Source of the DNA: Paraphysomonas bandaiensis
Lineage: Eukaryota; Protista; Chrysophyceae
Direction of reading: 5' to 3'
NCBI GenBank assembly: GCA_965644295.1
Contig: CBFFRP010000298.1
Coordinates: 186,001 to 250,000, forward strand
Length of the DNA stretch: 64,000 nucleotides
In this document: positions 8,528-34,398 of the stretch, in pieces
How the letters are laid out: every line of letters starts with the position of its first letter
Numbering within the stretch: position 1 is the stretch's first letter
Translations under genes and position numbers: made by a program
The notes under the pieces: model-generated
Seen by the model: the letters and a program-made list of their open reading frames with translations, nothing else
Database searches by the model: none
What the model was told of the DNA's origin: nothing

Positions 8528-9336
8528 TTAACCTTTCTTGAACCGCTTCTTCTGATTCTTCTCAACTTCATTTGAAATGCTCCTCTTTTCCCCTGTGATA
8601 GTTTCTTCATGGAGTTTAAAGAGCTTTGTAGATAACGCTTTTGTAAATATGTCGGCCGCCATATCCTTAGTCGATACATGAATCAATCTGGCTGTAGGAA
8701 ATCCTCCATTTACGTGTTCCCGAACCCAGTGGTACTTTATCTGAATATGTTTTGATCTTTTGTGGTAGACTGGATTTTCTGACAGATCTTTTGCACTCTT
8801 GCTGTCCATGAAGAATGGGGTTGGCTTCGTCAATGCGAGTCCTAGCTCTCGTAACACCCCCCGTAGCCACACCAGTTCTTGCATGGCCGCATATTCTGCC
8901 ATATACTCGGACTCCATACTGGAAGTTGCAACTGTAGTCTGCAGTTTGGACTGCCATGCGATTGCTCCAGCACATAAGAATACAATATAACCGGTAGTTG
9001 AACGTCTCGTTAGTATATCACCTGCCCAGTCCGCATCACTAAATACATGTAAATCAAACTTACTCCCACTGAATTTGATTCCTTTGCTGGTGGTGCCTCT
9101 CAAATATTTCAATAAATGAATAGCTAAACGACACGATGCGTATGTAGGATTACTGCTGTATCTCGATAGTAGTCCGATTGCATAGGCGAGATCTGGTCTT
9201 GTGTGGAGTGCGAGATACAGGATTGCTCCAATACTACTACGATACGGAAATTTTGAGACCCATTCCTCCTGTTCTGATGTAAGTTCCCGTTCTGCAGCTA
9301 GTAGTTCTTGTGCATTTGATGGCAACGGAGCTTCCT
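8528..9336 (-). pseudogene. pol: copia-1 pol C-terminal part (end of RT + RNase H), cut off by the insertion
   Basis: PYRSSIGAILYL..TRPDLAYA, FSDADWAG..TRRSTTG, SSMESEY, RSKHIQIKYHWVRE and ADIFTK motifs. Confidence 0.93.
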
Positions 9337-10176
9337 ACACACAGAGAGGCCGAAGGACCGAGGGGCGCTCTTGCCGCTTAGGCATTCTTCCTGAGCCAGA
9401 AGGGCTCTCGTATCGTAATAAAACTTCGTTTTATTACTCTTTCCTTTTCACTCTATCTTTAAATATAATTATATTAATAATACTATACTTTAAATAAAAA
9501 TTAATTACTTTATATAATATTAAATAATTATCTTATAATAAAATAAAAATATAGTTTTGGCATTTTGGCTTTCTGGCATTTTGGCTTTTATGAAAATTAG
9601 AAAAAGTTATAAAATAAAATTTATTATATAGTTTATGTTATAAAAAGCCAGTGCCAAAATGCCAGTTGTGGTGGTGATGATGATGGTGGTGTTGTAACAG
9701 TGATGGTGATGATGATGATGGTGGTGTTGTAACAGTGATGGTTATGTTATAAAAATCCAGTGCCATAATGCCAGTTTCTATTCAAAATATTTTTTCAAAA
9801 TAATTTATCAAAAATATTTATTCTATTCAAAATATTTTTTCAAAATAATTTATCAAAAATATTTATTCTATTCAAAATATTTTTTCAAAATAATTTATTC
9901 TATTCAAAATAATTTTTACGTTATTACCAATTAAAAAATTATTAAAAAGCAAAATGGTTTAAAGAGATAATTTTACTCCAACGAAGATTTAAAATGCCTA
10001 TTTTAAATCTAAGTTGGGGTACAACCCTACACAGATTATAAAACGCTTTAGGCGTTTTAAATCTGCACGGGTGTAAAAAGGCCATGAAAGATGTCAAAAA
10101 GAAAAAACGGATGAAGGTTAATAAATAGTTGAATACACACACGCAACAAACAATAAACAAAATAGTTTTAAAAAAT
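9337..10176 (+). repeat. Left TIR (840 bp)
   Basis: Starts ACACACAGAGAG and is the reverse complement of 30726-31566, with about 5 differences seen. Confidence 0.95.
9777..9915 (+). repeat. 45-bp tandem repeat within the left TIR
   Basis: Unit tctattcaaaatattttttcaaaataatttatcaaaaatatttat, 2 full copies plus partial copies. Confidence 0.85.
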
Positions 10177-10234
10177 ATATAAAAAATATATAAAACAATT
10201 TAAAAAAATAAAATATAATATTATTATATATATC

Positions 10235-12040
10235 ATGTATTTTGAAAAACAAGATTTATTAACATATGACGACATCATTATTCTTATTGATTCAAAATCT
10301 CCAAATGAAAGAGCCCAAATAATAACATCAAAGCTAAAAAAGTATTGCTTCTTTCAAAATGGTGTACTTTATACATATAACAATAAATTTATTGTATACA
10401 ATGCAACGTGTGAAAACAAAGATAATGTATTAATTACAATGATAACAAATTATTTAACTGAATCCTTGAAGAACTTGAGCAAAGAGCAAAGACAGTTAAT
10501 AGAACTTCAAAAGACAAAAGAGTTTAATAAGCTTTGTGAAAATGCAAATGTGAATAAAAACCTTCCACAACTGACAGTGTTGTTACAAGAAGAAGAAATA
10601 AAATTCGGAGCTGACTATTATGAAATACATTATAAGAATGGTTATATTGATTTAAAAACATTAGAGTTTAAACAAAGAATGCAAAATAAACACTTTGTAT
10701 GTAACTATATAAAACGCGATTATATAAAGTCATCAAAATATCAACAAGAGAAAATAAAAAATACACTGAAGAAGATATACCCGAAAAAAGAAGACTTAGA
10801 AACTATTTTATATATATTAGGTTCAGCACTTACAGGAAAAGCAACAAAAGAACAAAAGATATTGTTTTTATTAGGAGTCGGTAGCAATGGAAAATCAACA
10901 ATCATGCAAATAACAGAAAAGGCAATTGAATGCTATTTTGAGACATTAGAAGAAGACTCCTTCTCAATGTCAAATAAGAACCCAGATAAAACCTTTTCAT
11001 CATTTCATGGAAAGCCACATATACGCATGGTATGGATAAATGAACCTAAATGTGATAAAATGAATGCAACAACATTTAAAAAGTTTTGTGAAGGTGAAAT
11101 GAAAGGTAAATTATTATATAAAAATGGAGTTCATAATTTTAATCATAATGCATTACCCATATTTTCAGCAAACCTAATGCCTAATATTAATATTGACGGA
11201 GGCGTAAAGAGAAGATTTAGGGGTTATGTTCATGAGTCTGTATTCGTGACTGACAAATCAAAAGTTAATGAAAAAAAACATATTTATATGACAAATAGAG
11301 ATTTACTTGATAATATTGTGTCTGAAGGTTTATTAGATGCTTGGATAGATATTTTAAGTAAGTTTGCTAATAAGTGGATTAAAGGAGATGAAATTCCATG
11401 TCCTGAAAGCTTTCAAACAGCAACTGATGAAATGATACAAGAAAACGACAAATTTCAGGATTTCATTGATGCTAAATTAGAAATCACAACAAACGGAAAA
11501 GTAGATAGAATAGGAAAAGACGATATGGTAAGATTATATAAAGAGTTATACCATGGTAAAAACATATCAACTCAAACTATGATAAGTTTATTAAAAACTA
11601 AAATAGATTGGGATAGAGAAATAAGATGCAGAGTAACAGGAATAAAAGGTTGTTTTTATAATGTGAGAGAAAGAACATATGTGAAAGAAGATGATGAAGA
11701 AGATAATGAAGACGAAAAACAAAATACTAATGAAGAAGCAGAGAAAGTCAAAACATTGAAAGATGAAATCAAACAATTGAAAAAAAGAATAAAAGAACTT
11801 GAGAAGAGTAATGATGAGAAGACAACAAAAGAAGATAAACTTAATGAAGAGCTAGAAGACATGGATAAATTATTTGACTTTAGTAAAAACACCATAAACA
11901 AGTCAAAGAATAAACTAATCAATACAAATAAGAAGAAAGATGAAGAGAAGAAACTTAATAAAGATGTCAATTTTATAAAGTTACCAGAACAGACAGATTT
12001 GACAGATGAAGACATTAAAAATTTCACTAGTTTTTTTTAA
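10235..12040 (+). CDS. D5-like superfamily 3 helicase
   Basis: Walker A GVGSNGKST, Walker B VWINE and motif C FSAN, with upstream YKNGYIDLKTLEF (D5_N-like), GGVKRRF and an acidic coiled-coil tail. No primase domain recognised. Confidence 0.88.
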   Translation: MYFEKQDLLTYDDIIILIDSKSPNERAQIITSKLKKYCFFQNGVLYTYNNKFIVYNATCENKDNVLITMITNYLTESLKNLSKEQRQLIELQKTKEFNKLCENANVNKNLPQLTVLLQEEEIKFGADYYEIHYKNGYIDLKTLEFKQRMQNKHFVCNYIKRDYIKSSKYQQEKIKNTLKKIYPKKEDLETILYILGSALTGKATKEQKILFLLGVGSNGKSTIMQITEKAIECYFETLEEDSFSMSNKNPDKTFSSFHGKPHIRMVWINEPKCDKMNATTFKKFCEGEMKGKLLYKNGVHNFNHNALPIFSANLMPNINIDGGVKRRFRGYVHESVFVTDKSKVNEKKHIYMTNRDLLDNIVSEGLLDAWIDILSKFANKWIKGDEIPCPESFQTATDEMIQENDKFQDFIDAKLEITTNGKVDRIGKDDMVRLYKELYHGKNISTQTMISLLKTKIDWDREIRCRVTGIKGCFYNVRERTYVKEDDEEDNEDEKQNTNEEAEKVKTLKDEIKQLKKRIKELEKSNDEKTTKEDKLNEELEDMDKLFDFSKNTINKSKNKLINTNKKKDEEKKLNKDVNFIKLPEQTDLTDEDIKNFTSFF

Positions 12041-12096
12041 AATAATATAAAACAATTTAAAATATTAATATATATATTTAATATATATATATACAT

Positions 12097-12420
12097 ATGA
12101 ATTTTACGGTTAAAAATGTTGATATTGTATCAAAAGGTAAATACAAGTTAGGAGCAAAGAGAGTAAAACCTAAAACAGGGAATAAGCTTCAAATAAATGA
12201 TATAAGAACACTTTATAAAGCATTGTTAGATGATAAAGGAATAGATAGACATAAAATAAGCATATCTGTAAAAACCATTGACAATAGATACTTAACAATA
12301 AAGAGTTTTAAAGACAACGAAATTAAAGATTGGGATGATGTAGAATATTTAAAGAACAAAGTTAAAGATGATAAAAAATTTCTTGATTTTGTATATGCTG
12401 ATTTCTATGTGAAAACATAA
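12097..12420 (+). CDS. Hypothetical viral protein (107 aa)
   Basis: Clean ORF between the helicase and the polymerase, carrying the shared upstream motif. Confidence 0.7.
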   Translation: MNFTVKNVDIVSKGKYKLGAKRVKPKTGNKLQINDIRTLYKALLDDKGIDRHKISISVKTIDNRYLTIKSFKDNEIKDWDDVEYLKNKVKDDKKFLDFVYADFYVKT

Positions 12421-12492
12421 ATTAAAATAAATTAATATAAATTAATATAAAATAATATAAAGAATTATTATATATATATAATATATATAGTA

Positions 12493-14007
12493 ATGAGTTT
12501 TAATAAAAAAAAGTTTATCAATAAAAATGGCGAAGAAAGAGTATATAACAAAGAAACAGGCAAAGCGAGTTTTAATAAAAAAAAGTTTATCAATAAAAAT
12601 GGCGAAGAAAGAGTATATAACAAAGAAACAGGCGAAAATAGATATTTAAGATACTTCTATAGAGAGAACGGCAAAACATATTACATGTCACACGACAAAG
12701 ATGATTTGAACTGTCATGCAGACGAGTTATTTAAAGATGGATTGAATAAATATAACTATTTTGAATTGTTTGACGGTTATAAAGGTTCGAAAGAAGGAAT
12801 AATAAAGTATATGAAAGACTTTAAAGAAAGTTGCGATACATTACTAAAAGATGGTATATTTTATAAGAAATATTATAATCATAAGAGCGCTGCAACCCTA
12901 ACTTTTGTAAGATTCTCAAATATGAAAAAGAACAGTATAAGCATAAACAATAAGAAGGTTAGATTAGAAAACATAAACTTTAAAGAATCTTATGTTTTAG
13001 AGAAGTGTCATAATGCTGGTCTTTGTTGTTTAGATGAGAAATATAAAGATGATGTTATAAAGTGTTATGGATATGACTATGGAGCTTTCTATCCTCATAT
13101 TCTGTCTAAAAGTGATTTGAAAATTGCAACAACAAAGCCAGAATATAAGATGATGTCTCAAGATAAGTTTATGAAGAAGTTATCAAAAGGAAAGTTGAAA
13201 TATGGAGTATACAATGTCAAAATAACAATTAAAGAATGTAATAATAAAACAAGTCCTTCACAGTTTTATAAAAAGTTTTCATTTTCAAGTGATGATTGGT
13301 ATACTCATATAGACTTGTCATATGCATATTCACAAAAAGACAACTTTGAATTAGACTTTAAAATTAATGAACAAACGAAAGATTATAACACCATGATATA
13401 TGACAAAGATGACTTAATAGATAGCAAAGTTATATTTGAAAGTTGGTATGACAAATTAAAGAGTATGAAAGATAAGAATAAGAATATGTTAATCAAGCAT
13501 TTAATGTCTAGTATATGGGGTTATTTATGTGAACATAAGAAACTATATTATAATCAAGAAGAGTTTATGAAACTTGATGATGAAGATGTTTCAGACACAA
13601 CAGATAAACACGAAACAAAATATAAGATATTGAAAGAGAAGATGAGTATAGACAGTGATGATAATATAAAGATAAACTTCACATTGATTGACAAAGAACA
13701 ACCATATAAATACAACATAGCAAGAATGAAGCCTTTTTTAATGTCATATTGTCGTTGTTTTGTAGCTGAAATGATAGATAGAGAAGGCATATTAAATGAT
13801 ATAATAAGAATTCATACTGACGGTATAGTATTAAACAGAAAACACGAATTTAAAGACGAATACAAACCATTAAAAGAATCAAAGACAACAGGCAATATAT
13901 TATGGAAAAATACAAATACTTATTTCCATAAGTGTAAAAAGTGTAAGCGCTTATATTCACATAGAACAAATAAATTGATGGGTAAAGATGAAATACATGA
14001 ATGTTAA
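12493..14007 (+). CDS. Short, divergent family-B DNA polymerase (pPolB-derived)
   Basis: Motif A YGYDYGAFYP, motif B KHLMSSIWGYL and motif C IRIHTDGI in the correct order. There is an N-terminal 24-aa-period duplication and a C-terminal CKKC...H.C. Confidence 0.78.
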   Translation: MSFNKKKFINKNGEERVYNKETGKASFNKKKFINKNGEERVYNKETGENRYLRYFYRENGKTYYMSHDKDDLNCHADELFKDGLNKYNYFELFDGYKGSKEGIIKYMKDFKESCDTLLKDGIFYKKYYNHKSAATLTFVRFSNMKKNSISINNKKVRLENINFKESYVLEKCHNAGLCCLDEKYKDDVIKCYGYDYGAFYPHILSKSDLKIATTKPEYKMMSQDKFMKKLSKGKLKYGVYNVKITIKECNNKTSPSQFYKKFSFSSDDWYTHIDLSYAYSQKDNFELDFKINEQTKDYNTMIYDKDDLIDSKVIFESWYDKLKSMKDKNKNMLIKHLMSSIWGYLCEHKKLYYNQEEFMKLDDEDVSDTTDKHETKYKILKEKMSIDSDDNIKINFTLIDKEQPYKYNIARMKPFLMSYCRCFVAEMIDREGILNDIIRIHTDGIVLNRKHEFKDEYKPLKESKTTGNILWKNTNTYFHKCKKCKRLYSHRTNKLMGKDEIHEC

Positions 14008-15020
14008 TTATTTTGATTGTAATCATTAATCATATCTTGAAATCCATCTTCAATTAAGTTTTTCTCAGGTTCCCATGTGCTCTCATTCTTTCTGTAGTTC
14101 TTCCACCATATCAAATATTCAACTTTTTTCTTTTTTGTTCTCTTTCCAATAATTTTATATACTTCATATTTTGTTTCGTCTTCATCTTTAGCTTTCATGA
14201 GTTCATATTCAGAGTAAGATGTATTAGGTAATCCTTCTAATATATATCTGTAATAAGGTTTATCAGTGAAAGAAACAACTCTTATAATCTTCTTTGGTAT
14301 TTGTGAATATCTATAATCACCAACACGAAAATTTTTCGTATTTTGTTTATGTCCTAAAGCATTTTCAGGAGTGTCAAGCTTCTCATAAACAACATCGCCC
14401 ACATTATATTTTGCTTTAATAGAATAGTTAATGAATCCAGGTTCATTAACTGTTAAATTTTCTCTGAATTCATTTAAATCTTTTCTAACTATTGGTATTA
14501 TATCAGTCCATTCGCGAAATACTTTCTTTGTTTCTTTCTCTTTTTTATTCATATAACCATTAAAAAGTCTTGCTAATTGCTTATTTAGGGCTTCAACATT
14601 AGCCATTTGTTTATGTCTATTGGGTAAAGCGACTTTATGTAAAATTGAATTATCATGTAAGTATTTGAAAAAGACACCTTTAAATTCATTTCCGTCATCA
14701 GTTCTTATAGAAGCATAAGGTTTATCAATATATGGTCGTTTAAAGCATTCTTTCATAGCATTTAAGACAGTTTGAGAATCTTTATTCTTAATTGGTTCAA
14801 TGTCAAATCGTCTACTGAATAAATCACATATAACGAAACAGTATCTATATCCTTTTGAAGTTGTAGGAAGTTCCAATAAATCAGCCATCATATTATAATT
14901 AGCTTTTTGAACTGTATTCTTTCTAATGCTATTAAATTTCTTTTGTTTCTTTCCTTCTTTTGTAAATGTTTCATCAATATTTAGTTTCTTTATTATGTCG
15001 TTGAATGATTTCTTATTCAT
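14004..15020 (-). CDS. Retroviral-type (rve) integrase with C-terminal chromodomain
   Basis: DDE triad MMADL / IRTDDGNEF / ANVEALN. The chromodomain reads YEVYKIIGKR....VEYLIWWKNY...STWEPEKNL. Confidence 0.92.
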   Translation of the reverse strand: MNKKSFNDIIKKLNIDETFTKEGKKQKKFNSIRKNTVQKANYNMMADLLELPTTSKGYRYCFVICDLFSRRFDIEPIKNKDSQTVLNAMKECFKRPYIDKPYASIRTDDGNEFKGVFFKYLHDNSILHKVALPNRHKQMANVEALNKQLARLFNGYMNKKEKETKKVFREWTDIIPIVRKDLNEFRENLTVNEPGFINYSIKAKYNVGDVVYEKLDTPENALGHKQNTKNFRVGDYRYSQIPKKIIRVVSFTDKPYYRYILEGLPNTSYSEYELMKAKDEDETKYEVYKIIGKRTKKKKVEYLIWWKNYRKNESTWEPEKNLIEDGFQDMINDYNQNN

Positions 15021-15119
15021 ATATATTATGTGTATATATAAAATATAAAATATCTATTTGCTTAATTTTATATAAAGTCATTTAAAAAAATAAAAATATA
15101 TAGTATTATTATAACATAC

Positions 15120-15326
15120 ATGAATAAGTCAGAAAAGAATATTGCTTATCAAAAGGAATACTACAAGAAGAATAAAGACAAACTAATAGCTTATAATTGT
15201 AAAAAAGTCAAATGTGAATTATGCAATAGGGAAGTTTGTAAAAACAGAATTAAATTACATTACAAAACGGCATTATGTAAGAGAACACAAGAAGAGAAAA
15301 AGATGATTGAAGAAAGAAAGAAATAA
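15120..15326 (+). CDS. Small zinc-finger protein
   Basis: KEYYKKNKDK...CELC...H..T..C pattern, with the shared upstream motif. Confidence 0.7.
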   Translation: MNKSEKNIAYQKEYYKKNKDKLIAYNCKKVKCELCNREVCKNRIKLHYKTALCKRTQEEKKMIEERKK

Positions 15327-15382
15327 ATTAATAATTATTATAAAATGGTTTAAAAACTTATAAATATATATATATTATTATA

Positions 15383-15889
15383 ATGGCTGAAGAATGGAAA
15401 GTGATTGATGGATACAACAATAATTATAGTGTATCAAATAAAGGAAATATAAAGAATAACAAGACAAATAAGATATTGAAGCAAGCTATAAATAGAGACG
15501 GATATAATAAACTTTGTCTCTCTATGAATGGAAAGAAAAAAACAATTGATATACATAGATTGGTTGCAATGGCTTTTATACCAAATCCAGAAAATAAGCC
15601 TTGTGTAGACCATGTAAATAATATAAAAACAGACAACAATGTCAATAATTTGAGATGGGTTACAAATTCAGAGAATAATTATAACCAAAAGTTAAGCAAA
15701 GCAAATACATCTGGCGTGAAAGGAGTGTCTTATAACAAAAAAGATAAGAAATGGAGAGCGAAAATACAATTAGACGGCATTTCAATTCACCTTGGAAATT
15801 TTGACACAATCGAAGAAGCAAAACAAGCAAGAATAAAAAGAGCAAATGAAGCATTCGGAGTCTTCATAAATGCCTGTGAAAGAGAATAA
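15383..15889 (+). CDS. NUMOD4-HNH-AP2 homing endonuclease-like protein
   Basis: EEWKVIDGY..YSVSNKG (NUMOD4), HRLVA.AF...VDH.N..K.DN..NNLRWVT.SEN (HNH) and SGVKGVSY....KKWRAKI......HLG.F....EA..AR (AP2). Confidence 0.9.
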   Translation: MAEEWKVIDGYNNNYSVSNKGNIKNNKTNKILKQAINRDGYNKLCLSMNGKKKTIDIHRLVAMAFIPNPENKPCVDHVNNIKTDNNVNNLRWVTNSENNYNQKLSKANTSGVKGVSYNKKDKKWRAKIQLDGISIHLGNFDTIEEAKQARIKRANEAFGVFINACERE

Positions 15890-16219
15890 GAATCCTACAT
15901 AACAATAACAATGAATATAATGAATACGACACATATAACCAAACAAAGACAATATACCTGATATGCACTCATAATGACATCATATTTCCTTTATTTCCAT
16001 GCTTGTTATATATCACAATGATATAGACACAATGACAATGAATATTATGAATGAATATATATATAATGTATATATATACTCGTAGACACATAAACAACAC
16101 AACAGCATCACAACAACAACACAACATACACACCAACACAACAAACAACACAAAAATACAGAAAATATACAGACTAAAAATATTACATTTATATATTTAA
16201 ATCATGTCATCACGTATTA

Positions 16220-16438
16220 GGAAAGACGTTTGGAGTCGTTCCGGATGAAATAGTCTGTGGCGGCAGATGAAATAATCTGGTTCGATTCCCTATGCCGCCA
16301 CATTGAAAAAAGGCGTTTTTCTGAAAAAAAATGGAACTCAAATACTGTTAATGCTAGGCTTGGACCACATTAACACACATGAGGGTTCCAAACCATTTTT
16401 GGGGGAATTCCTTTACAACAATGGTTTGGAATCCTCAT
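16220..16438 (+). ncRNA. Candidate structured non-coding RNA with Pol III B-box
   Basis: GC-richer island in the only long intergenic gap. It has GGTTCGATTCC at 16279-16289, a 10-bp stem 16256-16265/16293-16302, a T5 run at 16316-16320 and a 19-bp stem 16379-16397/16420-16438. Confidence 0.4.
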
Positions 16439-16630
16439 AGCACCCATTTTGCTATAAAATAATCTTGAAAAGTCCCAATTTTGCTAAAACAAAACGACAA
16501 AATCCCAATTTTTATATAAAAACCTTGATTTATATAAAAAACCTTAATTTTAGAAATAAAACCCCCAATTTTTTTAAAAACCCTCAATTTAATTATAGAA
16601 TATAATAATGTTGTTGTATTATATATATAG

Positions 16631-18373
16631 ATGTCAATTTATACAAAGCCGAAAACAAGCAATAATGCCATTTTCAATGCAGAAAATCATAAACAGATTG
16701 AAACAGCAAGAGTAATATTAAATATGGCGGAATATGCAAGATTAGACAATGCTAAATTTACAGCGAACGTTGAAATCTTGAATGGTAATAACTTAACCAT
16801 AAACAATGAACCCCAAACAGTTGCTTTCACAGATTCAAAAAATAATATGTTGTCAGATATGAATACAAGATTATTAAACCTCACTGGAAATGAAATACAA
16901 ACATTAGACGGTATAAATACCAATGAAACTATACAATCACAATTAGATACATTGACAGCAAGTTTTAATGGTCTTGATGCTCTCCAAGATATAGACTTAA
17001 TTAATATACCGAATTTACAAACGGATGTGGCAAATTTACAAGCCCAAGATATAGCATTACAGAACAATATAAATTCTAAACATGATATAATCGATCTGAA
17101 TAATAAGTTATATTCTTCATTAGTGTATGATTCAACAGAATTAGACACAATAGATAATATTATTTCTAGTTTGAAGACTCAAATAACAAGTAATGATACA
17201 GACATAACAAACTTACAAAGTGACAAACACGATTTAATAGATGTAAATAACAAGTTGGATTCTGGATTAGTTTATGACTCAACAGAATTAGACACAATAG
17301 ATAATATAATTTCTAGTTTGAAGACTCAAATAACAAGTAATGATACAGACATAACAAACTTACAAAGTGACAAACATGATTTAATAGATGTAAATAACAA
17401 GTTGGACTCTTCATTAGTGTATGATTCAGCAGAATTAGATACAATAGATAATATAATAGTAAATTTACAAGGTCAAATAACAAGTAATGATACAGATATA
17501 ACAAACTTACAAAGTGATAAACATGATTTAATAGACGTAAATAACAGGTTAGATTCTTCATTAGTATATGACTCAACAGAATTAAACACAATGGATAATA
17601 TTATTTCTAGTTTGAATGCTCAAATAACAAGCAATGACACAGATATAACAAACTTACAAAGTGACAAACATGATTTAATAGATGTAAATAATAAACTTGA
17701 TTCATCATTAGTTTATGACTCGACAGAATTAAACACAATGGATAATATTATTTCTAGTTTGAAGACTCAAATAACAAGCAATGACACAGATATAACAAAC
17801 TTACAAAGTGATAAACATGATATAATCGATGTAAACAATAAATTGGATTCATCTTTAGTTTATGACTCTACATTTACTGATACAATTGATAACTTGCTAA
17901 GTACAATAGACGGCAATATTACAACACTTGAAAATACAAAATTGAATTTAACAGGAGGAACAATGACAGGAAATATAACAACTAAACAAATAAGCGAATC
18001 CATCAGCACAACATATACGTTTTCTTCAAATGTGTTGACATATAATTATAGCAATGGTTCAATCATATATTTCAATGGTTTAACAAGTGATACAAATTTT
18101 GAACTTGATATAACGAATATTAATTCAAGTAACTTAACAAATACTTCTTTCACAGTGTCAGTTATAATAGACACATCAACATATAAGGCATATATAAACA
18201 CTTTAAAAGTTAATACAGTTTCAGAAACGTTGAATGTGTCAGGAGGACTCGCAAATATTAATGTAGACGATGTGACAACATCAGGAGCAATATTACAAAC
18301 AATAACAATAATATATACTAATTCAGGAACATCACCAACGAAAGTAATATCAAATATAGGTTCATATTATTAA
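16631..18373 (+). CDS. Fibre-like virion protein with 49-aa tandem repeats
   Basis: 147-bp repeats start at 17078, 17225, 17372, 17519, 17666 and 17813 (partial). It has an LTGGTMTGNI fibre-type motif, a beta-rich C-terminus and an N-terminus shared with 28313-29368. Confidence 0.7.
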   Translation: MSIYTKPKTSNNAIFNAENHKQIETARVILNMAEYARLDNAKFTANVEILNGNNLTINNEPQTVAFTDSKNNMLSDMNTRLLNLTGNEIQTLDGINTNETIQSQLDTLTASFNGLDALQDIDLINIPNLQTDVANLQAQDIALQNNINSKHDIIDLNNKLYSSLVYDSTELDTIDNIISSLKTQITSNDTDITNLQSDKHDLIDVNNKLDSGLVYDSTELDTIDNIISSLKTQITSNDTDITNLQSDKHDLIDVNNKLDSSLVYDSAELDTIDNIIVNLQGQITSNDTDITNLQSDKHDLIDVNNRLDSSLVYDSTELNTMDNIISSLNAQITSNDTDITNLQSDKHDLIDVNNKLDSSLVYDSTELNTMDNIISSLKTQITSNDTDITNLQSDKHDIIDVNNKLDSSLVYDSTFTDTIDNLLSTIDGNITTLENTKLNLTGGTMTGNITTKQISESISTTYTFSSNVLTYNYSNGSIIYFNGLTSDTNFELDITNINSSNLTNTSFTVSVIIDTSTYKAYINTLKVNTVSETLNVSGGLANINVDDVTTSGAILQTITIIYTNSGTSPTKVISNIGSYY

Positions 18374-24638: not shown

Positions 24639-24681
24639 ATCGTATATAATAGTATTATATAAAAAAATATACTATATCGTT

Positions 24682-25569: not shown

Positions 25570-25607
25570 TATATAATATTTACTTATATAATAATTTTTG
25601 TAAATAG

Positions 25608-26066: not shown

Positions 26067-26115
26067 TATTATATAATATACTATTATATTATATTATATT
26101 TTATACTATTGAATA

Positions 26116-27534
26116 TTAACCAAATCTAACTCTCATACTTCCAATCTTTTTAATCTTTAATCCGTTGCCATCTTTTATAATGTCTTCTTGTGGTTCTTCT
26201 TCTACTTCATCTTCATCGTCATCTTTTCTTTTCATTTCTTCTTCTTCTCTTCTTATATCGTGTATAGTTCGTGTAATTGATTTTCTCGGTTCTCTTGGTT
26301 GTTTTGCTTCTCCTATATCTCTTTCACCTCCTTGTGCTAGTCTATTTCTCACTATGTTATGTACAGTTTTAAAATTATCACCAGTTACAGTGTTATATAT
26401 GGTCTTTTTTCGAACAGTTGATGCTCCTCTTCCAGTTTCCGTGAAGAGTTTTCTAACTCCGTTATAATCATCTTTGTCTTGTTGACTCGCTTTTTCTTTA
26501 CTCGTTTTATAATCATCTTCTTTTCCTAGTCTTAAAATGCTTGTTAATCGTTGCATTTTTCTGTTAACATCTTCCAATTCTTCCATACTCATATTATTTA
26601 CCCTACCAATTGCTCTTTGTGTTTCTTCATTATATTCTTCTTTCTCTTCTTTCATCTCAGTCTCTTCTTTCTCTTCTTTCTCTTCGTCAAAGTCAAAGTC
26701 ATAATCAGTGTTGCTATAAATATGAAAATCTTTATCTTGATCTGTTATTGATGATATTGAATCAGAAACTGAGTAATCATCATAAAGTGAGTAATCATCA
26801 GAAACTGGGTAATTTTGAAATTGTCTTGCGAAACTTTCTAATGATTTTTTGTCTATCTTTTGTATTTCTGGAACAATTGTATCTTCATCAAATTCTTCAT
26901 CAAAATCAGGTAAATCTGACATTTCATAAGCTTGTTTCACTTTGCTTTCTCCATACTTCTTAATCAATGATTCTAAAGTTAGTTGCAATGCTTCAAGTCT
27001 ATCATTTAAATCATTTTTAGTTTCGTTTGATATACCCGCTATATTAGTTAAATGTCGTATTATTGCATCAACTTCTTGTTCTGATGATAAAAGATTTCTT
27101 ATTCCTGATGTGTTTTTTTGATTTTCAAGATATCTATGTACAAAGTCATACATTTCTTGCGCTCTCACTTTACCTACCTTATTAGATAAAGAAGAAAACA
27201 TACCTAAAAAATATTTGTTAAAGTCAACAAAGTTTTTATATCTACTATTCTTTAATTTATTCAAAAAGTCTTGTGCCTCGTTACCGTCATTTTTAAACAA
27301 CTTCAAAGCGTTCTTTTGTGCTGTCTGTGATTGTAATACTTTATCTTCTTCTTTTTCTGCTAGTGTTCTATTATCTCTTAGTTCTGGTGTTATACCTTCT
27401 TTTAAGTGTTGTTGCTCTTCTGATATATTCTTACTAATGTCTGATAATATTTTTAAGTCGTTTAGTTCCTTTTGTCTAAAATATTTTGCTCTTTCCTTTG
27501 GACTCAATCTTCTTATTTCAAAACTTGATAACAT
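26116..27534 (-). CDS. Hypothetical charged/coiled-coil viral protein
   Basis: 472-aa ORF with acidic tracts, located downstream of the ATPase. Confidence 0.75.
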   Translation of the reverse strand: MLSSFEIRRLSPKERAKYFRQKELNDLKILSDISKNISEEQQHLKEGITPELRDNRTLAEKEEDKVLQSQTAQKNALKLFKNDGNEAQDFLNKLKNSRYKNFVDFNKYFLGMFSSLSNKVGKVRAQEMYDFVHRYLENQKNTSGIRNLLSSEQEVDAIIRHLTNIAGISNETKNDLNDRLEALQLTLESLIKKYGESKVKQAYEMSDLPDFDEEFDEDTIVPEIQKIDKKSLESFARQFQNYPVSDDYSLYDDYSVSDSISSITDQDKDFHIYSNTDYDFDFDEEKEEKEETEMKEEKEEYNEETQRAIGRVNNMSMEELEDVNRKMQRLTSILRLGKEDDYKTSKEKASQQDKDDYNGVRKLFTETGRGASTVRKKTIYNTVTGDNFKTVHNIVRNRLAQGGERDIGEAKQPREPRKSITRTIHDIRREEEEMKRKDDDEDEVEEEPQEDIIKDGNGLKIKKIGSMRVRFG

Positions 27535-27569
27535 CTTTTTATATATAATAACAACATATTTTTTTATAA

Positions 27570-28286
27570 TTAAAATGCTTCTATATTTAATATTTCATTG
27601 AAGTTCTTTCTGAATGCTCTTTCACTTGGCGCTTCTAAATCAATTAATAAAAAGTTCGTTATTTTGTCATCTATACAATACTGATACATGTTTAATAATT
27701 GCTCAATACTTCCATTTAAAGCATGATTTCTCATTAAATAAGTTATATCTCTTTTTCCACTTATCTTCTTCATTATTAAATAATTTAATTGCTCTCTAAC
27801 TAGTGTTGGAACTTTTGCATATTTCTGAGTCAAATACATTAATGATATACCTATTTTGCGACCTCTTAAGAACATTTCACCTATTATATCTTGATTCTTC
27901 TCATTAACTAAGTCATCAAATATAATTAGCGTTTGTCCGAAATATTCTTTATCAATGTTAACACTTCTTAAATGCTCTAGTCCTTCATGAATTTCAAATA
28001 AGTCATCATTGTCTTCTAACTTACTTTCTAAGTATTCATATAACGGTTCTTTCTTGTTTCTTGTATACAAGATAATCTTGTGAAACGTATTATTCATAAT
28101 ACAAATCATGTTCAAAACTATGTTCGATTTACCTGCTCCAGATGCTCCAACGATTAACATTCTGAAAGGAACTTTTATTCCATGTTTTCCATAGTTAGGA
28201 TTAATAGATTCTGTTTGAAAGGCTTTTACTTCGTCTAATTCATAAAAATTTACTATATCAACCATCTTATACTGTATATATAACAT
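27570..28286 (-). CDS. A32/FtsK-HerA family DNA packaging ATPase
   Basis: PFRMLIVGASGAGKS, LIIFDD and RGRK.GIS...LTQ.Y..VP..VR. The true start may be MVDI at 28265. Confidence 0.93.
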   Translation of the reverse strand: MLYIQYKMVDIVNFYELDEVKAFQTESINPNYGKHGIKVPFRMLIVGASGAGKSNIVLNMICIMNNTFHKIILYTRNKKEPLYEYLESKLEDNDDLFEIHEGLEHLRSVNIDKEYFGQTLIIFDDLVNEKNQDIIGEMFLRGRKIGISLMYLTQKYAKVPTLVREQLNYLIMKKISGKRDITYLMRNHALNGSIEQLLNMYQYCIDDKITNFLLIDLEAPSERAFRKNFNEILNIEAF

Positions 28287-28312
28287 TGTTTAGAAAAATA
28301 TATTCATTCTTT

Positions 28313-29368
28313 TTATATTTGTGTAATTTCTATTGTTGATTTTAAAGTGGTATCACTGCTTGCACCATCAAAATTAAAATCAGAATCAAATGATAAAGTA
28401 TATGTTGATAATTCATCTACAGTTATATAGAAAGAAATTTCACCTGTTATATATTCAATAGAACCTCTATTAGCTTTCCAATGTTGCCCAGATTTTCTTG
28501 ACTTTTTATGTAAAACATTATTCTTATGTAATTCGATATGAGTAAAAAAATGGTTAATAGATTCAAGTGTTCCAAGTTCATATTGATGTATGATTAAGAA
28601 TCTACCTAATTTTTTAATATAACCGAAGCTATCAAAAAAGTCATCTACATCTGGCGTATATGGCGCTAAAACATTATATTCACTCGTATATGATATATTA
28701 ACGCTTGATGCATATAACACACCAGAACCAATTGAAATAATTCCTGAAACATTACCATTAGTGATATTTGTTGAATTATAACCTATCATTTCACCTTTGT
28801 TAAATTCATATAATTTTGATATGCTACCTAAACCATGTCCTAAGGCGTCTAATTGATTTTGAATGTTTGATGAAACATTATTTAGTTTGTTTAATTCGTC
28901 GTTTGTTATTAATCCATCTCCTATTAAACCACAACTTATTCTATTTCCTGATGTTATTAAATCTTGTTTTCCTGTTTCATAGTTATCATATGTCGTTTTT
29001 AAATTATTTGTAAAGGCCACTGTTTGTTCACTTAGATTTGGAAATATTATTTTTGATACTTCTACACTTCCTGAAATTGACGTATTCGTTCCATCATATG
29101 ATAGATTAGTTGCTTTTGTTTTCGTATTTTCAATGTCTGTTTTTAAATTGTCTGTCATTGCCGTTGTTTGTATTGAATCGTCATTAAACAATAATTGTCC
29201 ATCTCCATATAAATTCAATGATTGCAAAACTAGAGTTCCACTCATTACATCTCCACTCTTTTGAATATATCCTGTTAAGTCAACGTCAACAATGCTATCT
29301 TTTATATATGTGTAATTTGAAGGGTTAAATACTCCATTTGATGGTTTCGGTTTGGGGTAAATACTCAT
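28313..29368 (-). CDS. Second fibre-like protein
   Basis: MSIYPKPK...FNPSNY N-terminus, SGDVMSGTL, QTVAFT and IQNQLDAL motifs shared with 16631-18373. Confidence 0.68.
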   Translation of the reverse strand: MSIYPKPKPSNGVFNPSNYTYIKDSIVDVDLTGYIQKSGDVMSGTLVLQSLNLYGDGQLLFNDDSIQTTAMTDNLKTDIENTKTKATNLSYDGTNTSISGSVEVSKIIFPNLSEQTVAFTNNLKTTYDNYETGKQDLITSGNRISCGLIGDGLITNDELNKLNNVSSNIQNQLDALGHGLGSISKLYEFNKGEMIGYNSTNITNGNVSGIISIGSGVLYASSVNISYTSEYNVLAPYTPDVDDFFDSFGYIKKLGRFLIIHQYELGTLESINHFFTHIELHKNNVLHKKSRKSGQHWKANRGSIEYITGEISFYITVDELSTYTLSFDSDFNFDGASSDTTLKSTIEITQI

Positions 29369-29440
29369 GGTTATATATATTTATACTATATAATTATTTA
29401 ATGTGAAAATTACAAATTATTTTATAACATCAATATATAT

Positions 29441-30238
29441 ATGTCATTAACTTCTATTATCAATATTGCTAATCACATTAACAAATATAATGTCGTTCAA
29501 GGTAATACAAATACACAATACCAAACAAATGTCACTTTTCCAACGTCTTTTGCAGGTCTTCCAACTGCTTTTAATGGTCAAGATGTTTTTGATACTCATA
29601 TAACTAAGTCTTATTCTGGCGGAAGTGGTGTGACTGCTTATGCAAATGGAAATTATAACTTAATTTGTTCTTCATATGGTAGATACAGAACAGCCGACCC
29701 TTTAAATTCATGTAACTTATTATTTGATGATAGTGATGAGACGTTCTGGGGTAATAACAGATATAACAGCGGACCAAATGGTATTGATAATTACAGAGAT
29801 GGCGTTTTTCATGCTATGCCTTCTGGTGAAGCTTATGATGATACAACAGGTAATTACATTGGTAGCAATGGAACAGATTATTATTTTTCAACTACATATG
29901 ATACATCACAATCAATAGCTGGCGAATGGGTTCAAGTTCAATTACCTTATAAAATTCGTTTAACATCTATATCAACTCAAGAAAGAAGCACACCACAAGA
30001 GAGAACAATGAAAGCATGCTATATATTGGGGTCTGATGATGGCACAACTTGGAATTATATTGATGATGTAGCATTTCCAGGAACACAAGATTCAACTTTG
30101 TTCACTGAAGCAGTTACAACAACTAAAAGATATTCAATTATAAGAATTGTTATTGCCTCAGCAGGTTATATTATGTTTAACACTATCAATTTTAGATTGA
30201 CAGGTGATACATGGAGTTTAGATTCAACAACTGAATAA
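29441..30238 (+). CDS. Discoidin/F5-8 type C-like (galactose-binding fold) protein
   Basis: GEWVQVQLP..IRLTSI, YILGSDDGTTW and RYSIIRIVI. Confidence 0.72.
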   Translation: MSLTSIINIANHINKYNVVQGNTNTQYQTNVTFPTSFAGLPTAFNGQDVFDTHITKSYSGGSGVTAYANGNYNLICSSYGRYRTADPLNSCNLLFDDSDETFWGNNRYNSGPNGIDNYRDGVFHAMPSGEAYDDTTGNYIGSNGTDYYFSTTYDTSQSIAGEWVQVQLPYKIRLTSISTQERSTPQERTMKACYILGSDDGTTWNYIDDVAFPGTQDSTLFTEAVTTTKRYSIIRIVIASAGYIMFNTINFRLTGDTWSLDSTTE

Positions 30239-30267
30239 TATTTTTATCTAACATATATATATATATA

Positions 30268-30675
30268 ATGGGTTATGGAATTAAATATTTTGATTGTTGT
30301 GGACATGTTGATAGTGAATTAAACGGTTATTATGATGAAGATAACGATAAATTTATTCATACAAAATTATCAAATTGCTGTGAAAAACCTTTGAATAAAT
30401 CAGAAGGTGAAATTAATAATATACTTAATAAATATTGTAGAAGATATATAAGCTCTCGTACATTATCATATCCATCTAAAGAAATATTAGAAGATTATAT
30501 TTCTAGAAACAATTTAAAAGAAAGGAAAAATGAAAATATATTCAAAAAATTATATTTATGGGATAAATTTTGGGAGTCCATTATGTATGTTATTGAAAAT
30601 GAAGGAGATGAGAAAAAAATGAAAACAAAAAAGTGGAAATACTCTTTAAATGTTATTGATAACTTGATGTATTGA
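30268..30675 (+). CDS. Hypothetical viral protein
   Basis: 135-aa ORF with TATATA immediately upstream. Confidence 0.62.
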   Translation: MGYGIKYFDCCGHVDSELNGYYDEDNDKFIHTKLSNCCEKPLNKSEGEINNILNKYCRRYISSRTLSYPSKEILEDYISRNNLKERKNENIFKKLYLWDKFWESIMYVIENEGDEKKMKTKKWKYSLNVIDNLMY

Positions 30676-30725
30676 AACAATTTAATATAATGTTTTAATT
30701 TAAAAAAATTAAAACAGTAAAAGGA

Positions 30726-31566
30726 ATTTTTTAAAACTATTTTGTTTATTGTTTGTTGCGTGTGTGTATTCAACTATTTATTAACCTTCATCTGCTTTTT
30801 CTTTTTGACATCTTTCATGGCCTTTTTACACCCGTGCAGATTTAAAACGCCTAAAGCGTTTTATAATCTGTGTAGGGTTGTACCCCAACTTAGATTTAAA
30901 ATAGGCATTTTAAATCTTCGTTGGAGTAAAATTATCTCTTTAAACCATTTTGCTTTTTAATAATTTTTTAATTGGTAATAACGTAAAAATTATTTTGAAT
31001 AGAATAAATTATTTTGAAAAAATATTTTGAATAGAATAAATATTTTTGATAAATTATTTTGAAAAAATATTTTGAATAGAATAAATATTTTTGATAAATT
31101 ATTTTGAAAAAATATTTTGAATAGAAACTGGCATTATGGCACTGGATTTTTATAACATAACCATCACTGTTACAACACCACCATCATCATCATCACCATC
31201 ACTGTTACAACACCACCATCATCATCACCACCACAACTGGCATTTTGGCACTGGCTTTTTATAACATAAACTATATAATAAATTTTATTTTATAACTTTT
31301 TCTAATTTTCATAAAAGCCAAAATGCCAGAAAGCCAAAATGCCAAAACTATATTTTTATTTTATTATAAGATAATTATTTAATATTATATAAAGTAATTA
31401 ATTTTTATTTAAAGTATAGTATTATTAATATAATTATATTTAAAGATAGAGTGAAAAGGAAAGAGTAATAAAACGAAGTTTTATTACGATACGAGAGCCC
31501 TTCTGGCTCAGGAAGAATGCCTAAGCGGCAAGAGCGACCCCTCGGCCCTTCGTCCTCTCTGTGTGT
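30726..31566 (-). repeat. Right TIR (841 bp)
   Basis: Reverse complement of 9337-10176; ends CTCTCTGTGTGT. Confidence 0.95.
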
Positions 31567-34398
31567 TTCCTTATTCTTTCTACTGTTTCCCATGACATGG
31601 TTGAATTTCTGAATCACTTTCTCCGCATACTTCGATTGATCTAGTTTGAACCAGTCTTCGCCTCTCGTGATTCGAATATTTAGGAAACTTTGGCACTCTC
31701 CCATGTCCCTCATTTCAAACGTTTGGCAGAACTTGTTCTTGACAAAAACAAGGAATTCAAAATCCACAGATGCGATAATGATGTCATCTACATACAGGAG
31801 TAATAACATAAGTTTGCCTTGGTGCCAACGATAATATAAGCAGGTATCTAACACGCATGATCTAAACTGCATTGACTTTATGAATTTATCGATGTGGCGA
31901 TTCCACTGACGCGGTGAGGCTCGTAAACCATATAGTGCTTTGATGAGTTTAAAGCACCATCCATTGCTGAGCTCCTCATCTGGAGGTGGGTACATGTAGA
32001 CATCTTCATCTAAATTTGCATAACAAAATGCAGAACTGACATCAAGCTGGTGTACATGCATATGGAACATAAAAGCAATTGCAATCACGAGCCTGATAGT
32101 TATCCCTTTTACGACCGGTGCAAATGTAGATGGCTCCTCCTCAGTTTTCTCCTGAAGATTTCCTAGTGCGACTAGTCGAGCTTTATACTTCTGTATGTTG
32201 CCTAGTATGTCACGCTTGAGTTTGTGAACATACTTACATCTGATTAATTTGACCCCAGATGGTCGACGTACTATCTTCAAAACGCCTCTTCGTAAAAGAG
32301 CTTTCTTCTCTATTCGTCTGGCTGTTCTCCATTCGTCCGCTTGAGGGGACCTTTCCGCCTCTAGAAAACTGTTCGGTTCATGGACGTGTTTATTCTCAGT
32401 ACTCTCCTCTGAATCCATGACATTTACATCGGCATCCATTACCTCTATCATGTTAATTTCTCCTAACACTGAAGCATTAGCTAGCCTCCTCCGTAAACGC
32501 TTACGTTTCTCTGCATCCCTTTTAGATACTCTCTGTAGGGTATTAGTACTGTTAGAATTTATAGTATCAGTATATTCAGGTACTCCCTGAGCTGCATCTT
32601 CATCAAGTACTCCTTGAGTCATATCTTCATCAGGTGCTCCCTGAATAATACCATGGTTAACTAGCTGCTCCTGATGGCTCTCAGGCGCTGGGATAGTGGA
32701 CGTACTCCGTCCATCAGTGGTACTAGAGGCGTCCCTCGTTCCCGTATATCCCGTGTATCCAGGCGTATTCCTTGTCATTACCTGAACATCTTCTATATGT
32801 ATGGGTACCTTCTGCTCAATGTGGGTTCTCCCCGCAGTTACAAGTGACCGATAACCAACAATGACACCCTTTCTTTCTACCACTCTGGTGGTCTTGTACA
32901 ACAGCCCGTCTTCATCGTCTATGTGAAAAGTCTTCACGAGATGCTGATAATCATTCACCGTCTTTGGTCTAGGTGCTGTTCGTACTCGGAGAGCGTCGAT
33001 TTCTGCGTAATATTCTTCGGTGCGGGAAGGTATACTCTCATCTGTGAGTATGTGTACACACGTAATTACCTTATCGGTTGCTGGGAGATACACCTGGTAT
33101 CCAACTTTATCTTCCGAATATCCCACTAGGTATCCAATCTTTGATTTATCGTCCCAGTCCTTTCGCCTGTCCGCCTTAGGTGTCAATATATAAGTTTTGC
33201 ACCCCCATACTCTAAAATATTTCAAACTGGGTGGCTGACCCGTGACATACTCATATGGGGACATGTATCCTCTGTCCGTCCTTGTAGGGAGTCTGATCAG
33301 TGTATAGCGAGCAGCATGATACGCGTCTAACCAGAATGGAACCGGTAGGCCTGACTGCAACAACATCGCCAACGCCATCTCTGATGCAGTCCTGAATTTT
33401 CGCTCCTCTACTGCATTCATTTCCGGACTATCTGTTGAAGACCAAGTATGTTTGTAGCAGCCTTGTGATCTCAAATAGCTCCTAAGTTCTTGATTTATGA
33501 GTTCTCCAGCTCCATCAGCGTGGTAGTGGTCCACTCTCAGCTTATATTGCCTAATCTCTCCTTCGAACACCTCTCTAAAAAACTGAATCACTTCTTCTTT
33601 AGTACGCTGGTTTACGCCTTTTACCCAGAACATCCTACTCGGGTGATGAGTTAGTTTGATCACGTAGCGCTCATCACCTCGAGCGGGAGTATTCAGAAAT
33701 ACTTGCACATCAGCCGATATGTCCGGCTTGACATCCGTATCCTCCTTTGTGTGAAACGAAACTCTCGTAATCTTTGATCTGGCACATATGCTACAGAGAC
33801 AAGATTTTTTTAATTCAGTCTTCGATAGGTGCTTCCTCTGCAGATTTGAGCCAGTGAACAACATCCTTCTATGTGCCTCCGTTAGAGCCCCTTTGTTGAA
33901 ATGGCCCATTCTCCTATGCAGCAGTTCCAGCTCGTCCTCACCAGTCCTATCGCTAAGATTTACTTCACAATTACTCGGTGTTGACACATCTGGAAGCTCC
34001 AACAGCTGCTGAGTTGGAACTGCAGTCATTCCATTCTTCATGGGTCCCTCCAGTACCAGCTCACCGGTATTACAGTCATAAATTTGGATCCCATACCACA
34101 CCGTGAATCGATAGCCCATTTCGTTCAGCTTACGTCCGGAGCACAGGCATCGATTGATCTGATCTGAAATTTCTATGTCTCTCCATGCTCCACGGGAACC
34201 CACACTTGTGATATGAATCTCTGATCCCTTCTTAGATCCGTTTATCACCTTTGATGTATTCATATGAGTGTCAAGCATGGTCACATCATTCATTAAGAAC
34301 ATTGATGATGAACAGCATGTATCTATGTATGTATAGTGTTCAGCAGTACCAATCATACAACATGTGTCACTTATCATATATATCAACAGCGCAGTCAT
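31567..34398 (-). pseudogene. pol: copia-1 pol N-terminal part (PR, INT, most of RT), interrupted
   Basis: YIDTCCS (protease-like), LLHRRMGH...CSIC, HADGAGE/ERKFR (integrase), KYKARLVALG, HQLDV..AF, LYGLR and LYVDD. Confidence 0.93.

What the first reader, a model, noticed from the sequence alone, without database searches (positions are those of the whole stretch)
9332..31571. Intact-looking 22-kb Polinton-like virus/virophage integrated inside the RT gene of a young copia retrotransposon
Seen: ~840-bp TIRs, TSD TTCCT and about 24 uninterrupted ORFs, including a full morphogenesis module. Removing the element plus one TSD copy restores pol in frame (...HVMGNSRKNKE|APLPSNAQELL...). The host copia LTRs look identical, so both insertions appear recent. 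Known: PolB + SF3 helicase + rve integrase + lipase + FNIP-like genes is a mavirus-like inventory, and mavirus-like elements can act as inducible defence against giant viruses. Inference: this may be a reactivatable provirus of an undescribed lineage, combining that gene set with a PLV-type capsid. It may favour transposon-rich sites through its chromodomain integrase.
Basis: partly seen in the sequence, partly recalled or inferred. Interest (0 to 1): 0.9.

Follow-up and report, generated by a model that had tools for sequence, protein, structure and literature searches.

The report
Gossevirus provirus with split priming protein
A complete-looking 22-kb DNA virus of the known Gossevirus group sits inside a young retrotransposon of a marine protist, and its short mavirus-type polymerase is paired with a small unannotated gene that likely encodes the missing protein primer for viral DNA replication.

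Summary
The element spans 9337-31566, with 840-nt TIRs, TSD TTCCT and 23 unbroken ORFs, inside the RT of a copia whose LTRs are identical. Other runs show the empty copia site.

It is not an undescribed lineage and not a virophage by capsid. MCP, penton, protease and gene order place it in the Gossevirus (GKS1) group; one relative is a published GKS1 genome. Depth ratios suggest tens of copies, and the copia family is about as numerous, so nesting is unremarkable. Chromodomain targeting and giant-virus reactivation are untested.

What is new lies in the replication cassette: SF3 helicase, a 107-aa gene, a short pPolB, and rve integrase. The polymerase folds like mavirus pPolB but lacks its terminal-protein and vOTU domains. 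The 107-aa gene has no Pfam family, 757 homologous clusters and one invariant tyrosine. It precedes 31 of 32 such polymerases and is absent beside 5 of 5 fused ones, whose N-terminal domain it weakly matches. It is likely a stand-alone terminal protein (about 0.7; fold not modelled).

The parts
9337..31566 (.). Endogenous Gossevirus-group virus, 22,230 bp
   Evidence: TIRs, TSD, GC step
9332..9336 (+). Left TSD TTCCT
31567..31571 (+). Right TSD TTCCT
9337..10176 (+). Left TIR (840 nt), holding a 45-nt AT-rich repeat array at about 9758-9924
30726..31566 (-). Right TIR; 4 mismatches and 1 indel against the left
10235..12040 (+). D5-like SF3 helicase without primase domain, 601 aa
   Evidence: PHROG primase-helicase families E 4e-27 over residues 40-476; weak D5_N; Walker A at residue 214
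12097..12420 (+). 107-aa protein, likely stand-alone terminal (priming) protein; invariant Tyr84
12493..14007 (+). Short mavirus-type protein-primed DNA polymerase B, 504 aa with a 24-aa in-frame duplication; no TP, vOTU or exonuclease motifs
14004..15020 (-). rve integrase with C-terminal chromodomain, 338 aa
   Evidence: Pfam rve 3.9e-9, Chromo 4.3e-13; HP1 match 1.3e-11
15120..15326 (+). 68-aa zinc-finger-like protein
   Evidence: weak Pfam; homologues in 15 of 71 polymerase loci
15383..15889 (+). NUMOD4-HNH-AP2 endonuclease; skipped in some copies
   Evidence: joint 15320-15844 in X4 and X7
16631..18373 (+). Fibre-like protein with six 49-aa repeats, 580 aa (function inferred)
   Evidence: homologues in L009, L011
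18546..18713 (+). 55-aa Cys/His-rich ORF, unknown
18777..19100 (-). 107-aa ORF, unknown
19213..19587 (+). 124-aa ORF, FNIP-like only by eye
   Evidence: no FNIP hit
19602..20312 (-). Lipase-like alpha/beta hydrolase, GHSLGG motif
   Evidence: homologues in 8 of 25 capsid loci
20420..20956 (-). 178-aa ORF, unknown
   Evidence: homologues in L009, L011
21010..21510 (-). Adenain-like maturation cysteine protease
   Evidence: Peptidase_C5 4.5e-5, above cut-off; 19 of 25 loci
21528..22316 (-). 262-aa basic protein after the MCP, likely core protein
   Evidence: 2 of 25 loci; like orf17 of the reference Gossevirus by eye
22384..24072 (-). Double jelly-roll major capsid protein, Gossevirus (PC_0014/GKS1) type, 562 aa
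24339..24638 (-). 99-aa ORF between penton and MCP
   Evidence: same position as orf14 of the reference
24682..25569 (-). Minor capsid protein (penton), 295 aa
   Evidence: 20 of 25 loci; like reference orf13 annotated as penton, by eye
25608..26066 (-). 152-aa conserved Gossevirus protein
   Evidence: 12 of 25 loci
26116..27534 (-). 472-aa acidic protein, unknown
   Evidence: 1 of 25 loci
27570..28286 (-). A32-like packaging ATPase
   Evidence: Pox_A32 1.2e-16; 17 of 25 loci
28313..29368 (-). 351-aa fibre-like protein (inferred)
29441..30238 (+). F5/8 type C carbohydrate-binding domain protein
   Evidence: Pfam 1.5e-8
30268..30675 (+). 135-aa ORF, unknown
8040..8359 (-). Host copia 3' LTR
8528..9336 (-). 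Host copia pol, part after the insertion (end of RT, RNase H by position)
31567..34398 (-). Host copia pol, part before the insertion (protease, integrase, RT)
   Evidence: RVT_2 2e-53, profile cut at 233 of 244
34367..35452 (-). Host copia gag
   Evidence: Retrotran_gag_2
35436..35755 (-). Host copia 5' LTR, identical to the 3' LTR

Best explanation
This is a recently integrated, intact-looking Gossevirus-group provirus, one of likely tens of related copies in a marine stramenopile genome, that carries a mavirus-type replication cassette in which the terminal protein is likely split off as its own 107-aa gene. Shown: boundaries, gene set, capsid group, cassette order, loss of the TP/vOTU region from the polymerase. 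Inferred mechanism: the rve integrase joined the linear TIR-bounded genome into host DNA, making the 5-bp duplication and inactivating one copia copy. On activation the 107-aa protein would be deoxynucleotidylated on Tyr84 and prime synthesis from both ends by the exonuclease-less polymerase, with the SF3 helicase unwinding; no vOTU cleavage would be needed. MCP, penton, ATPase and protease would build particles, with fibres and lipase for entry. The copia site is most likely one tolerated site among many; a chromodomain bias to silenced chromatin is possible. The trigger is unknown; giant-virus co-infection is my leading guess (about 0.5).
For: Capsid group: an MCP profile retrieved 25 viral loci. 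L016 matches by sample id and length (18,118 bp) a row labelled PC_0014/GKS1 in Table S4 of PMC7805220; its MCP is 30% identical (E 2e-57). The reference Gossevirus has the same ATPase-penton-MCP-basic protein block and recognisable sequences by eye. Protease in 19, penton 20, ATPase 17, lipase 8 of 25 loci. The model is a double jelly roll nearest virophage MCPs at 8-14% identity, as reported for Gosseviruses. Polymerase: best viral fold match mavirus pPolB, E 3e-22, TM 0.63; the family aligns to residues 278-597 of a 632-aa fused relative (prob 99.7); 39 full-length loci are 387-471 aa. Terminal protein: upstream of 31 of 32 evaluable short polymerases (the single window sequence alone finds 21 of 71 loci); 757 clusters, best 150 all 79-168 aa; Tyr84 in 130 of 130; no separate copy in 5 of 5 fused loci, where the best profile match is the polymerase's own N-terminal domain. 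Multi-copy: single-contig depths of virus 1350-1690 against unique flank 42.7 in X5, and about 199 against 3.4 in X16.
Against: The sequence link of the 107-aa family to the fused N-terminal domain is weak: hhalign probability 3%, P 0.015 (best of 11 windows; reversed control P 0.25), hmmsearch whole-sequence E 0.022, domain 2e-4, in 1 of 5 fused proteins; no match to P0131 alone or to PRD1 terminal protein. Its fold was not modelled. The 31 of 32 count uses a profile built from 26 of those loci. Only the best 150 of 757 family members were seen. Gossevirus membership rests on one published genome among 12 sample ids looked up plus by-eye comparison; the GKS1 HMM was not available, and the window MCP sits in a subclade apart from L016. 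None of the 25 capsid relatives carries this polymerase in the fetched DNA. No particle, excision or expression evidence was obtained; contig depth is a rough guide only.
Confidence: 0.7

Rival explanations
1. Same Gossevirus provirus, but the 107-aa protein is an accessory DNA-binding or processivity factor, and the short polymerase starts synthesis some other way (primer-independent, hairpin or host primer).
For: Similarity to known terminal proteins is not statistically significant. The little-finger fold is itself a DNA-binding domain.
Against: The only invariant residue is a tyrosine at the position expected for a linking residue; the gene is present with short and absent with fused polymerases; the ends are simple TIRs.
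Confidence: 0.22
2. It is a bona fide virophage (Virophaviricetes, mavirus-like) acting as inducible defence.
For: Mavirus-type polymerase, separate SF3 helicase, rve integrase, protease, lipase; MCP fold nearest Sputnik and mavirus MCP.
Against: MCP only 8-14% identical to virophage MCPs; 0 of 63 MCP family members hit a virophage capsid Pfam; MCP belongs with GKS1. An AT-flanked TCTA lies within 120 nt upstream of 0 of 23 ORFs. A virophage lifestyle remains possible without membership.
Confidence: 0.03
3. The integrase chromodomain actively targets LTR retrotransposons, so the nesting reflects a preference.
For: Chromodomain aligns to HP1 with the three aromatic positions kept (cage residues recalled). 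Viruses of this kind are often found in repeat regions.
Against: One site only. Copia DNA is 16,118 of 41,770 non-viral bases of this window and the copia family is about as deep as the virus family, so chance plus tolerance suffices. No sequence specificity was found for endogenous maviruses.
Confidence: 0.3
4. The nesting is an assembly chimera of two multi-copy repeats.
For: No listed contig piece bridges either junction; both elements are multi-copy; the two TIRs carry different family variants.
Against: A precise 5-bp duplication with the copia frame continuing exactly, and a single TTCCT at empty sites in three runs, is what integration makes and misjoins rarely do.
Confidence: 0.04

Closest known systems
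Gossevirus (GKS1, MCP cluster PC_0014) group; PMC7805220, PMC10120064, bioRxiv 10.64898/2026.06.19.733378
   Same: MCP family, penton, A32 ATPase, core cysteine protease, lipase, gene block, about 22 kb with TIRs, endogenous in stramenopiles; some members have pPolB plus rve.
   Different: Marine subclade (19 sequences at 42-92% identity, support 1.0); replication by the short split mavirus-type cassette, seen in none of the 25 capsid relatives fetched but in L029 and probably L053.
Mavirus and endogenous mavirus-like elements; pMVRE group 1 (PMC8547959, PMC13215967)
   Same: Exonuclease-less pPolB with the altered motif C, separate SF3 helicase, rve integrase, low GC against the host, 5-bp TSD, association with retrotransposons.
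   Different: Capsid is not virophage-type; the polymerase lacks the fused TP and vOTU domains that mavirus has; here the virus is inside the retrotransposon, not the reverse; reactivation not shown.
Stand-alone terminal proteins of PRD1, adenoviruses and a coral polinton (bioRxiv 10.1101/2024.03.18.585575)
   Same: Separate gene next to the polymerase; predicted four-strand, two-helix pattern with a Tyr/Ser linking residue before the last strand.
   Different: Only about 107 aa, without the helical extensions that paper describes for stand-alone TPs; vOTU is wholly lost here, whereas adenoviruses and the coral element keep it on the polymerase; no detectable sequence match to PRD1 TP.
Canonical Maverick/Polinton (Polintoviricetes groups 1 and 2)
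   Same: pPolB, rve, ATPase, protease, MCP, penton, TIRs, TSD.
   Different: Polymerase is less than half the length with no exonuclease; MCP is a different family; protist host.

Membership tests
Gossevirus (GKS1) | MCP of cluster PC_0014 / GKS1 profile | tested here: met
   Indirect: 30% identity, E 2e-57 to L016, a published PC_0014 genome; by-eye match to the reference MCP. The GKS1 HMM itself was not available.
Gossevirus (GKS1) | Cysteine protease as core gene | tested here: met
   Peptidase_C5; 19 of 25 relatives
Gossevirus (GKS1) | Lipase/phospholipase in about half of members | tested here: met
   GHSLGG hydrolase; 8 of 25 relatives
Gossevirus (GKS1) | ATPase groups with Gosseviruses in a reference tree | not tested
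   No reference tree; ATPase is 44% identical to that of L016
Gossevirus (GKS1) | Stramenopile (or cryptophyte) host | tested here: inconclusive
   Host genes are in a marine protist transcriptome set; best named CTF18 hits carry ochrophyte labels (49% and lower). Chrysophyte is a guess.
Virophaviricetes (virophages) | Virophage-type MCP | tested here: not met
   8-14% identity in fold matches; 0 of 63 hit virophage capsid Pfams
Virophaviricetes (virophages) | Replication depends on a giant virus | not testable with these tools
   Needs culture
Mavirus-type replication module (pMVRE group 1) | Exonuclease-less pPolB with separate SF3 helicase and rve integrase | tested here: met
Mavirus-type replication module (pMVRE group 1) | TP and vOTU domains fused to the polymerase | tested here: not met
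   First 200 or so residues of fused relatives are absent
Maverick/Polinton groups 1-2 | Full pPolB (TP-vOTU-exonuclease-palm) | tested here: not met
   480-aa polymerase without those motifs
Maverick/Polinton groups 1-2 | TIRs, 5-6 bp TSD, rve integrase, full morphogenesis set | tested here: met
PRD1-type terminal protein | Four-stranded sheet with two helices (little-finger fold) | not tested
PRD1-type terminal protein | Conserved Tyr/Ser linking residue between second helix and last strand | tested here: inconclusive
   Tyr84 in 130 of 130 at about that place; secondary structure inferred by eye
PRD1-type terminal protein | Homology to the D1 domain of fused pPolBs | tested here: inconclusive
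   P 0.015, probability 3%, best of 11 windows; none to single sequences
PRD1-type terminal protein | Covalent attachment to genome 5' ends | not testable with these tools
   Needs biochemistry

The most novel reading that the evidence does not exclude
A widespread branch of mavirus-type polymerases has shed its terminal-protein and protease domains and uses a minimal 107-aa stand-alone primer (757 unannotated clusters). Helicase, primer, polymerase and chromodomain integrase travel as one cassette between unrelated capsid lineages, and this marine Gossevirus family, present as many intact copies in a culturable protist, is an inducible provirus that could give the first Gossevirus particles.
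Probability: 0.45. Interest if true: 0.72.

Novelty: new variant of a known kind. Interest (0 to 1): 0.5.

Why it matters
It gives a testable function and catalytic residue to a large unannotated protein family, and would add an independent split of the terminal protein, this time with full loss of vOTU, to the history of protein-primed polymerases. A two-protein priming system of about 110 plus 410 aa without exonuclease is simple to reconstitute. Gosseviruses are described as the protist sister group of Polintons; I saw no isolate in the passages read, and a multi-copy intact family in a protist that appears to be in culture is a practical place to look. The copia nesting gives only a relative date: the virus arrived after a retrotransposition too young to have a single LTR difference.

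Tried and rejected
No whole genome was held, so insertion sites could not be mapped. Single-protein scans with the MCP found nothing in viral or metagenome contigs. Pfam names no family for the MCP (0 of 63) or the 107-aa family; PDB sequence search of that family gave only chance hits; the atlas gave no usable hit. hhalign to PRD1 TP and to P0131 alone was negative. Three ORFs wrongly picked for the first alignment (L058-L060 rows) were dropped. No Rfam family or tRNA in the window. Marine and hydrocarbon metagenome runs hold the virus, but both that I laid also hold the host copia at similar depth, so I reject them as evidence of free virions. My first idea that the polymerase N-terminal hairpin is a vOTU remnant was dropped: it corresponds to the region after vOTU in P0131. 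Ten of 12 sample ids looked up in Table S4 gave no row and one gave a different contig. Earlier-findings look-ups returned nothing.
Full report
Observation. The element runs from 9337 to 31566 and is flanked by TTCCT on both sides. Its TIRs align over 840 nt with 4 mismatches and 1 indel. GC is 27% against 41.5% outside. It holds 23 unbroken ORFs of 55 aa or more. It interrupts the RT of a minus-strand copia: the two pol halves, translated separately, are in frame across one TSD copy, and the LTRs (8040-8359, 35436-35755) differ at 0 of 320 positions. Contigs of runs X4, X5 and X15 show the same copia site empty. No listed piece bridges a virus-copia junction, but the tables are cut and only contigs were available. 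The virus is younger than a very young copia copy.

Host and copy number. A neighbouring host protein is letter for letter in a marine protist transcriptome collection, another is 98% identical to one, and its best named relatives carry ochrophyte labels. A chrysophyte is my guess, from the literature on hosts. Sixteen of 24 listed runs hold half or more of the sampled words. All 7 runs laid hold both virus and copia. In X5 single contigs have depth 42.7 on unique flank, 1350-1690 on well-matching virus and 1628-2211 on copia; in X16 3.4, about 199 and 93-112. The tool warns that depth is no copy number, but tens of copies of each is the simple reading. Copies vary: the HNH gene is skipped in X4 and X7, the 72-nt polymerase duplication is absent in X3 and X7 contigs, and in X15 and X16 other sequence abuts the inner edge of the TIR. 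Five close MCPs differ from the window's at 31-45 residues.

Capsid module. The MCP has 74 homologues, no Pfam and a confident double-jelly-roll model (pLDDT 87.9) nearest virophage and giant-virus MCPs at 14% identity or less. A profile fetched 25 viral loci with protease in 19, penton 20, ATPase 17, the 152-aa gene 12 and lipase 8. One, L016, matches a genome listed as PC_0014/GKS1 in Table S4 of PMC7805220 (supplement rows). The reference Gossevirus of Table S2 has a recognisably similar MCP, penton, ATPase, protease and post-MCP protein in the same block (by eye). Gosseviruses are defined by this MCP, a core protease and frequent lipase, and are endogenous in chrysophytes and oomycetes (PMC7805220 passages; PMC10120064 passages; bioRxiv 10.64898/2026.06.19.733378, parts 1-3 of 5) and in cryptophytes, mostly with rve integrase (PMC12220804 passages and sections 10-11). 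In a midpoint-rooted tree of 88 MCPs (all 25 loci, 62 of 74 homologues, the window) the window falls in a 19-member clade, support 1.0, apart from L016. So: known group, probably an unnamed marine subclade.

Replication cassette. The polymerase family is 387-471 aa in 39 full-length loci, has the palm motifs with RIHTDG and no exonuclease motifs. Its model (pLDDT 88.4) matches mavirus pPolB best (E 3e-22, TM 0.63). Mavirus pPolB is TP-vOTU-palm and lacks the same Asp in motif C (bioRxiv 10.1101/2024.03.18.585575, passages and parts 1-2 of the results). The short family aligns to residues 278-597 of a 632-aa fused relative; such fused forms (624-652 aa, five more) keep an N-terminal domain and vOTU Cys/His motifs that the short forms lack. 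The order helicase, small gene, polymerase, opposing integrase recurs (integrase opposite in 57 of 57 loci with both) with Gossevirus-type (L029) and other capsids (L026 tested; L030, L046 by eye). Mavirus-type polymerase with SF3 helicase and chromodomain is known (PMC13215967, results part 1), as is replicase swapping between capsid types (bioRxiv 10.64898/2026.10.13.758929, passages and section 13; bioRxiv 10.64898/2026.07.28.741278, passages).

The 107-aa gene. The window sequence alone finds homologues in 21 of 71 polymerase loci; a profile finds one in 31 of the 32 loci with a full-length polymerase and 480 nt or more upstream (26 of these loci seeded the profile). The family has 757 clusters at E 0.001 or better, the best 150 all 79-168 aa, and no Pfam. 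Tyr84 is the only invariant residue in 130 sequences. The hydrophobic pattern fits the strand-helix order described for PRD1-type terminal proteins, whose linking Tyr or Ser lies before the last strand; that reading is by eye. In the 5 fused loci there is no separate homologue within 3 kb, and the profile's best match is the N-terminal domain of one fused polymerase (domain E 2e-4, whole E 0.022); profile-profile comparison to six N-terminal domains gives 67 collinear columns, P 0.015, probability 3%, best of 11 windows. Comparisons with single sequences were negative. Position, size, complementary distribution and the tyrosine make a stand-alone terminal protein likely (about 0.7); homology is not proven. 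Three searches and term look-ups in three papers (PMC12721341 passages) did not show this architecture described; subscription papers and bioRxiv supplements were not searched.

Targeting, promoters, lifestyle. The chromodomain aligns with HP1 (E 1e-11) and keeps its aromatic positions (their role is recalled). With copia at 39% of the non-viral window one nested site shows no preference; endogenous maviruses showed no sequence specificity and 18 of 29 sites near repeats (PMC8547959 passages). A motif TATAAA-N4-TTTAAA precedes six non-structural genes and no structural gene (6 of 8 matches in the window; pattern chosen after inspection), and TATATA lies within 3 nt of the start in 14 of 23 ORFs against 0.6 in shuffles: likely two expression classes. 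The mavirus TCTA motif does not mark the genes. Nothing here shows induction or defence.

Verdict. Real, recent, intact-looking Gossevirus provirus; the nesting is ordinary. The split polymerase-primer cassette is the part worth following. New variant of a known kind; interest 0.5.

Noticed in passing
window 34250-34520: Host copia gag and pol are in different frames, with an open pol frame overlapping the gag end; a programmed frameshift or a sequence error. The LTR ends TG...TA, not TG...CA.
   Followed up: partly
window 9758-9924, 18366-18505, 24099-24338, 30959-31171: Arrays of a 45-nt AT-rich unit in both TIRs and at two internal sites, one just upstream of the MCP; possible regulatory arrays or recombination points for module exchange.
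   Followed up: partly
window 10235-16100 against 16100-30700: In X1, X3 and X7 the replication half has about half the contig depth of the structural half, suggesting that some copies pair this capsid with another replication module.
   Followed up: partly
window 15890-16630: 740-nt non-coding gap with CA-rich runs and inverted repeats; no Rfam match. Possible origin or module boundary.
   Followed up: partly
window 53369-64000: Two further closely related copia elements in tandem with long unbroken ORFs (1646 and 1433 aa).
   Followed up: no
window 35436-35755: Loose ends at the copia LTR edges in several runs show many other insertion sites of this copia family.
   Followed up: no
L098-L102, P0131: Fused mavirus-type polymerases (624-652 aa) occur in viral contigs with varied neighbours, including apparent non-virophage capsids.
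   Followed up: partly
window 1109-4446: Host sulfotransferase and glycosyltransferase genes, each a single long ORF, lie next to the repeat cluster.
   Followed up: no
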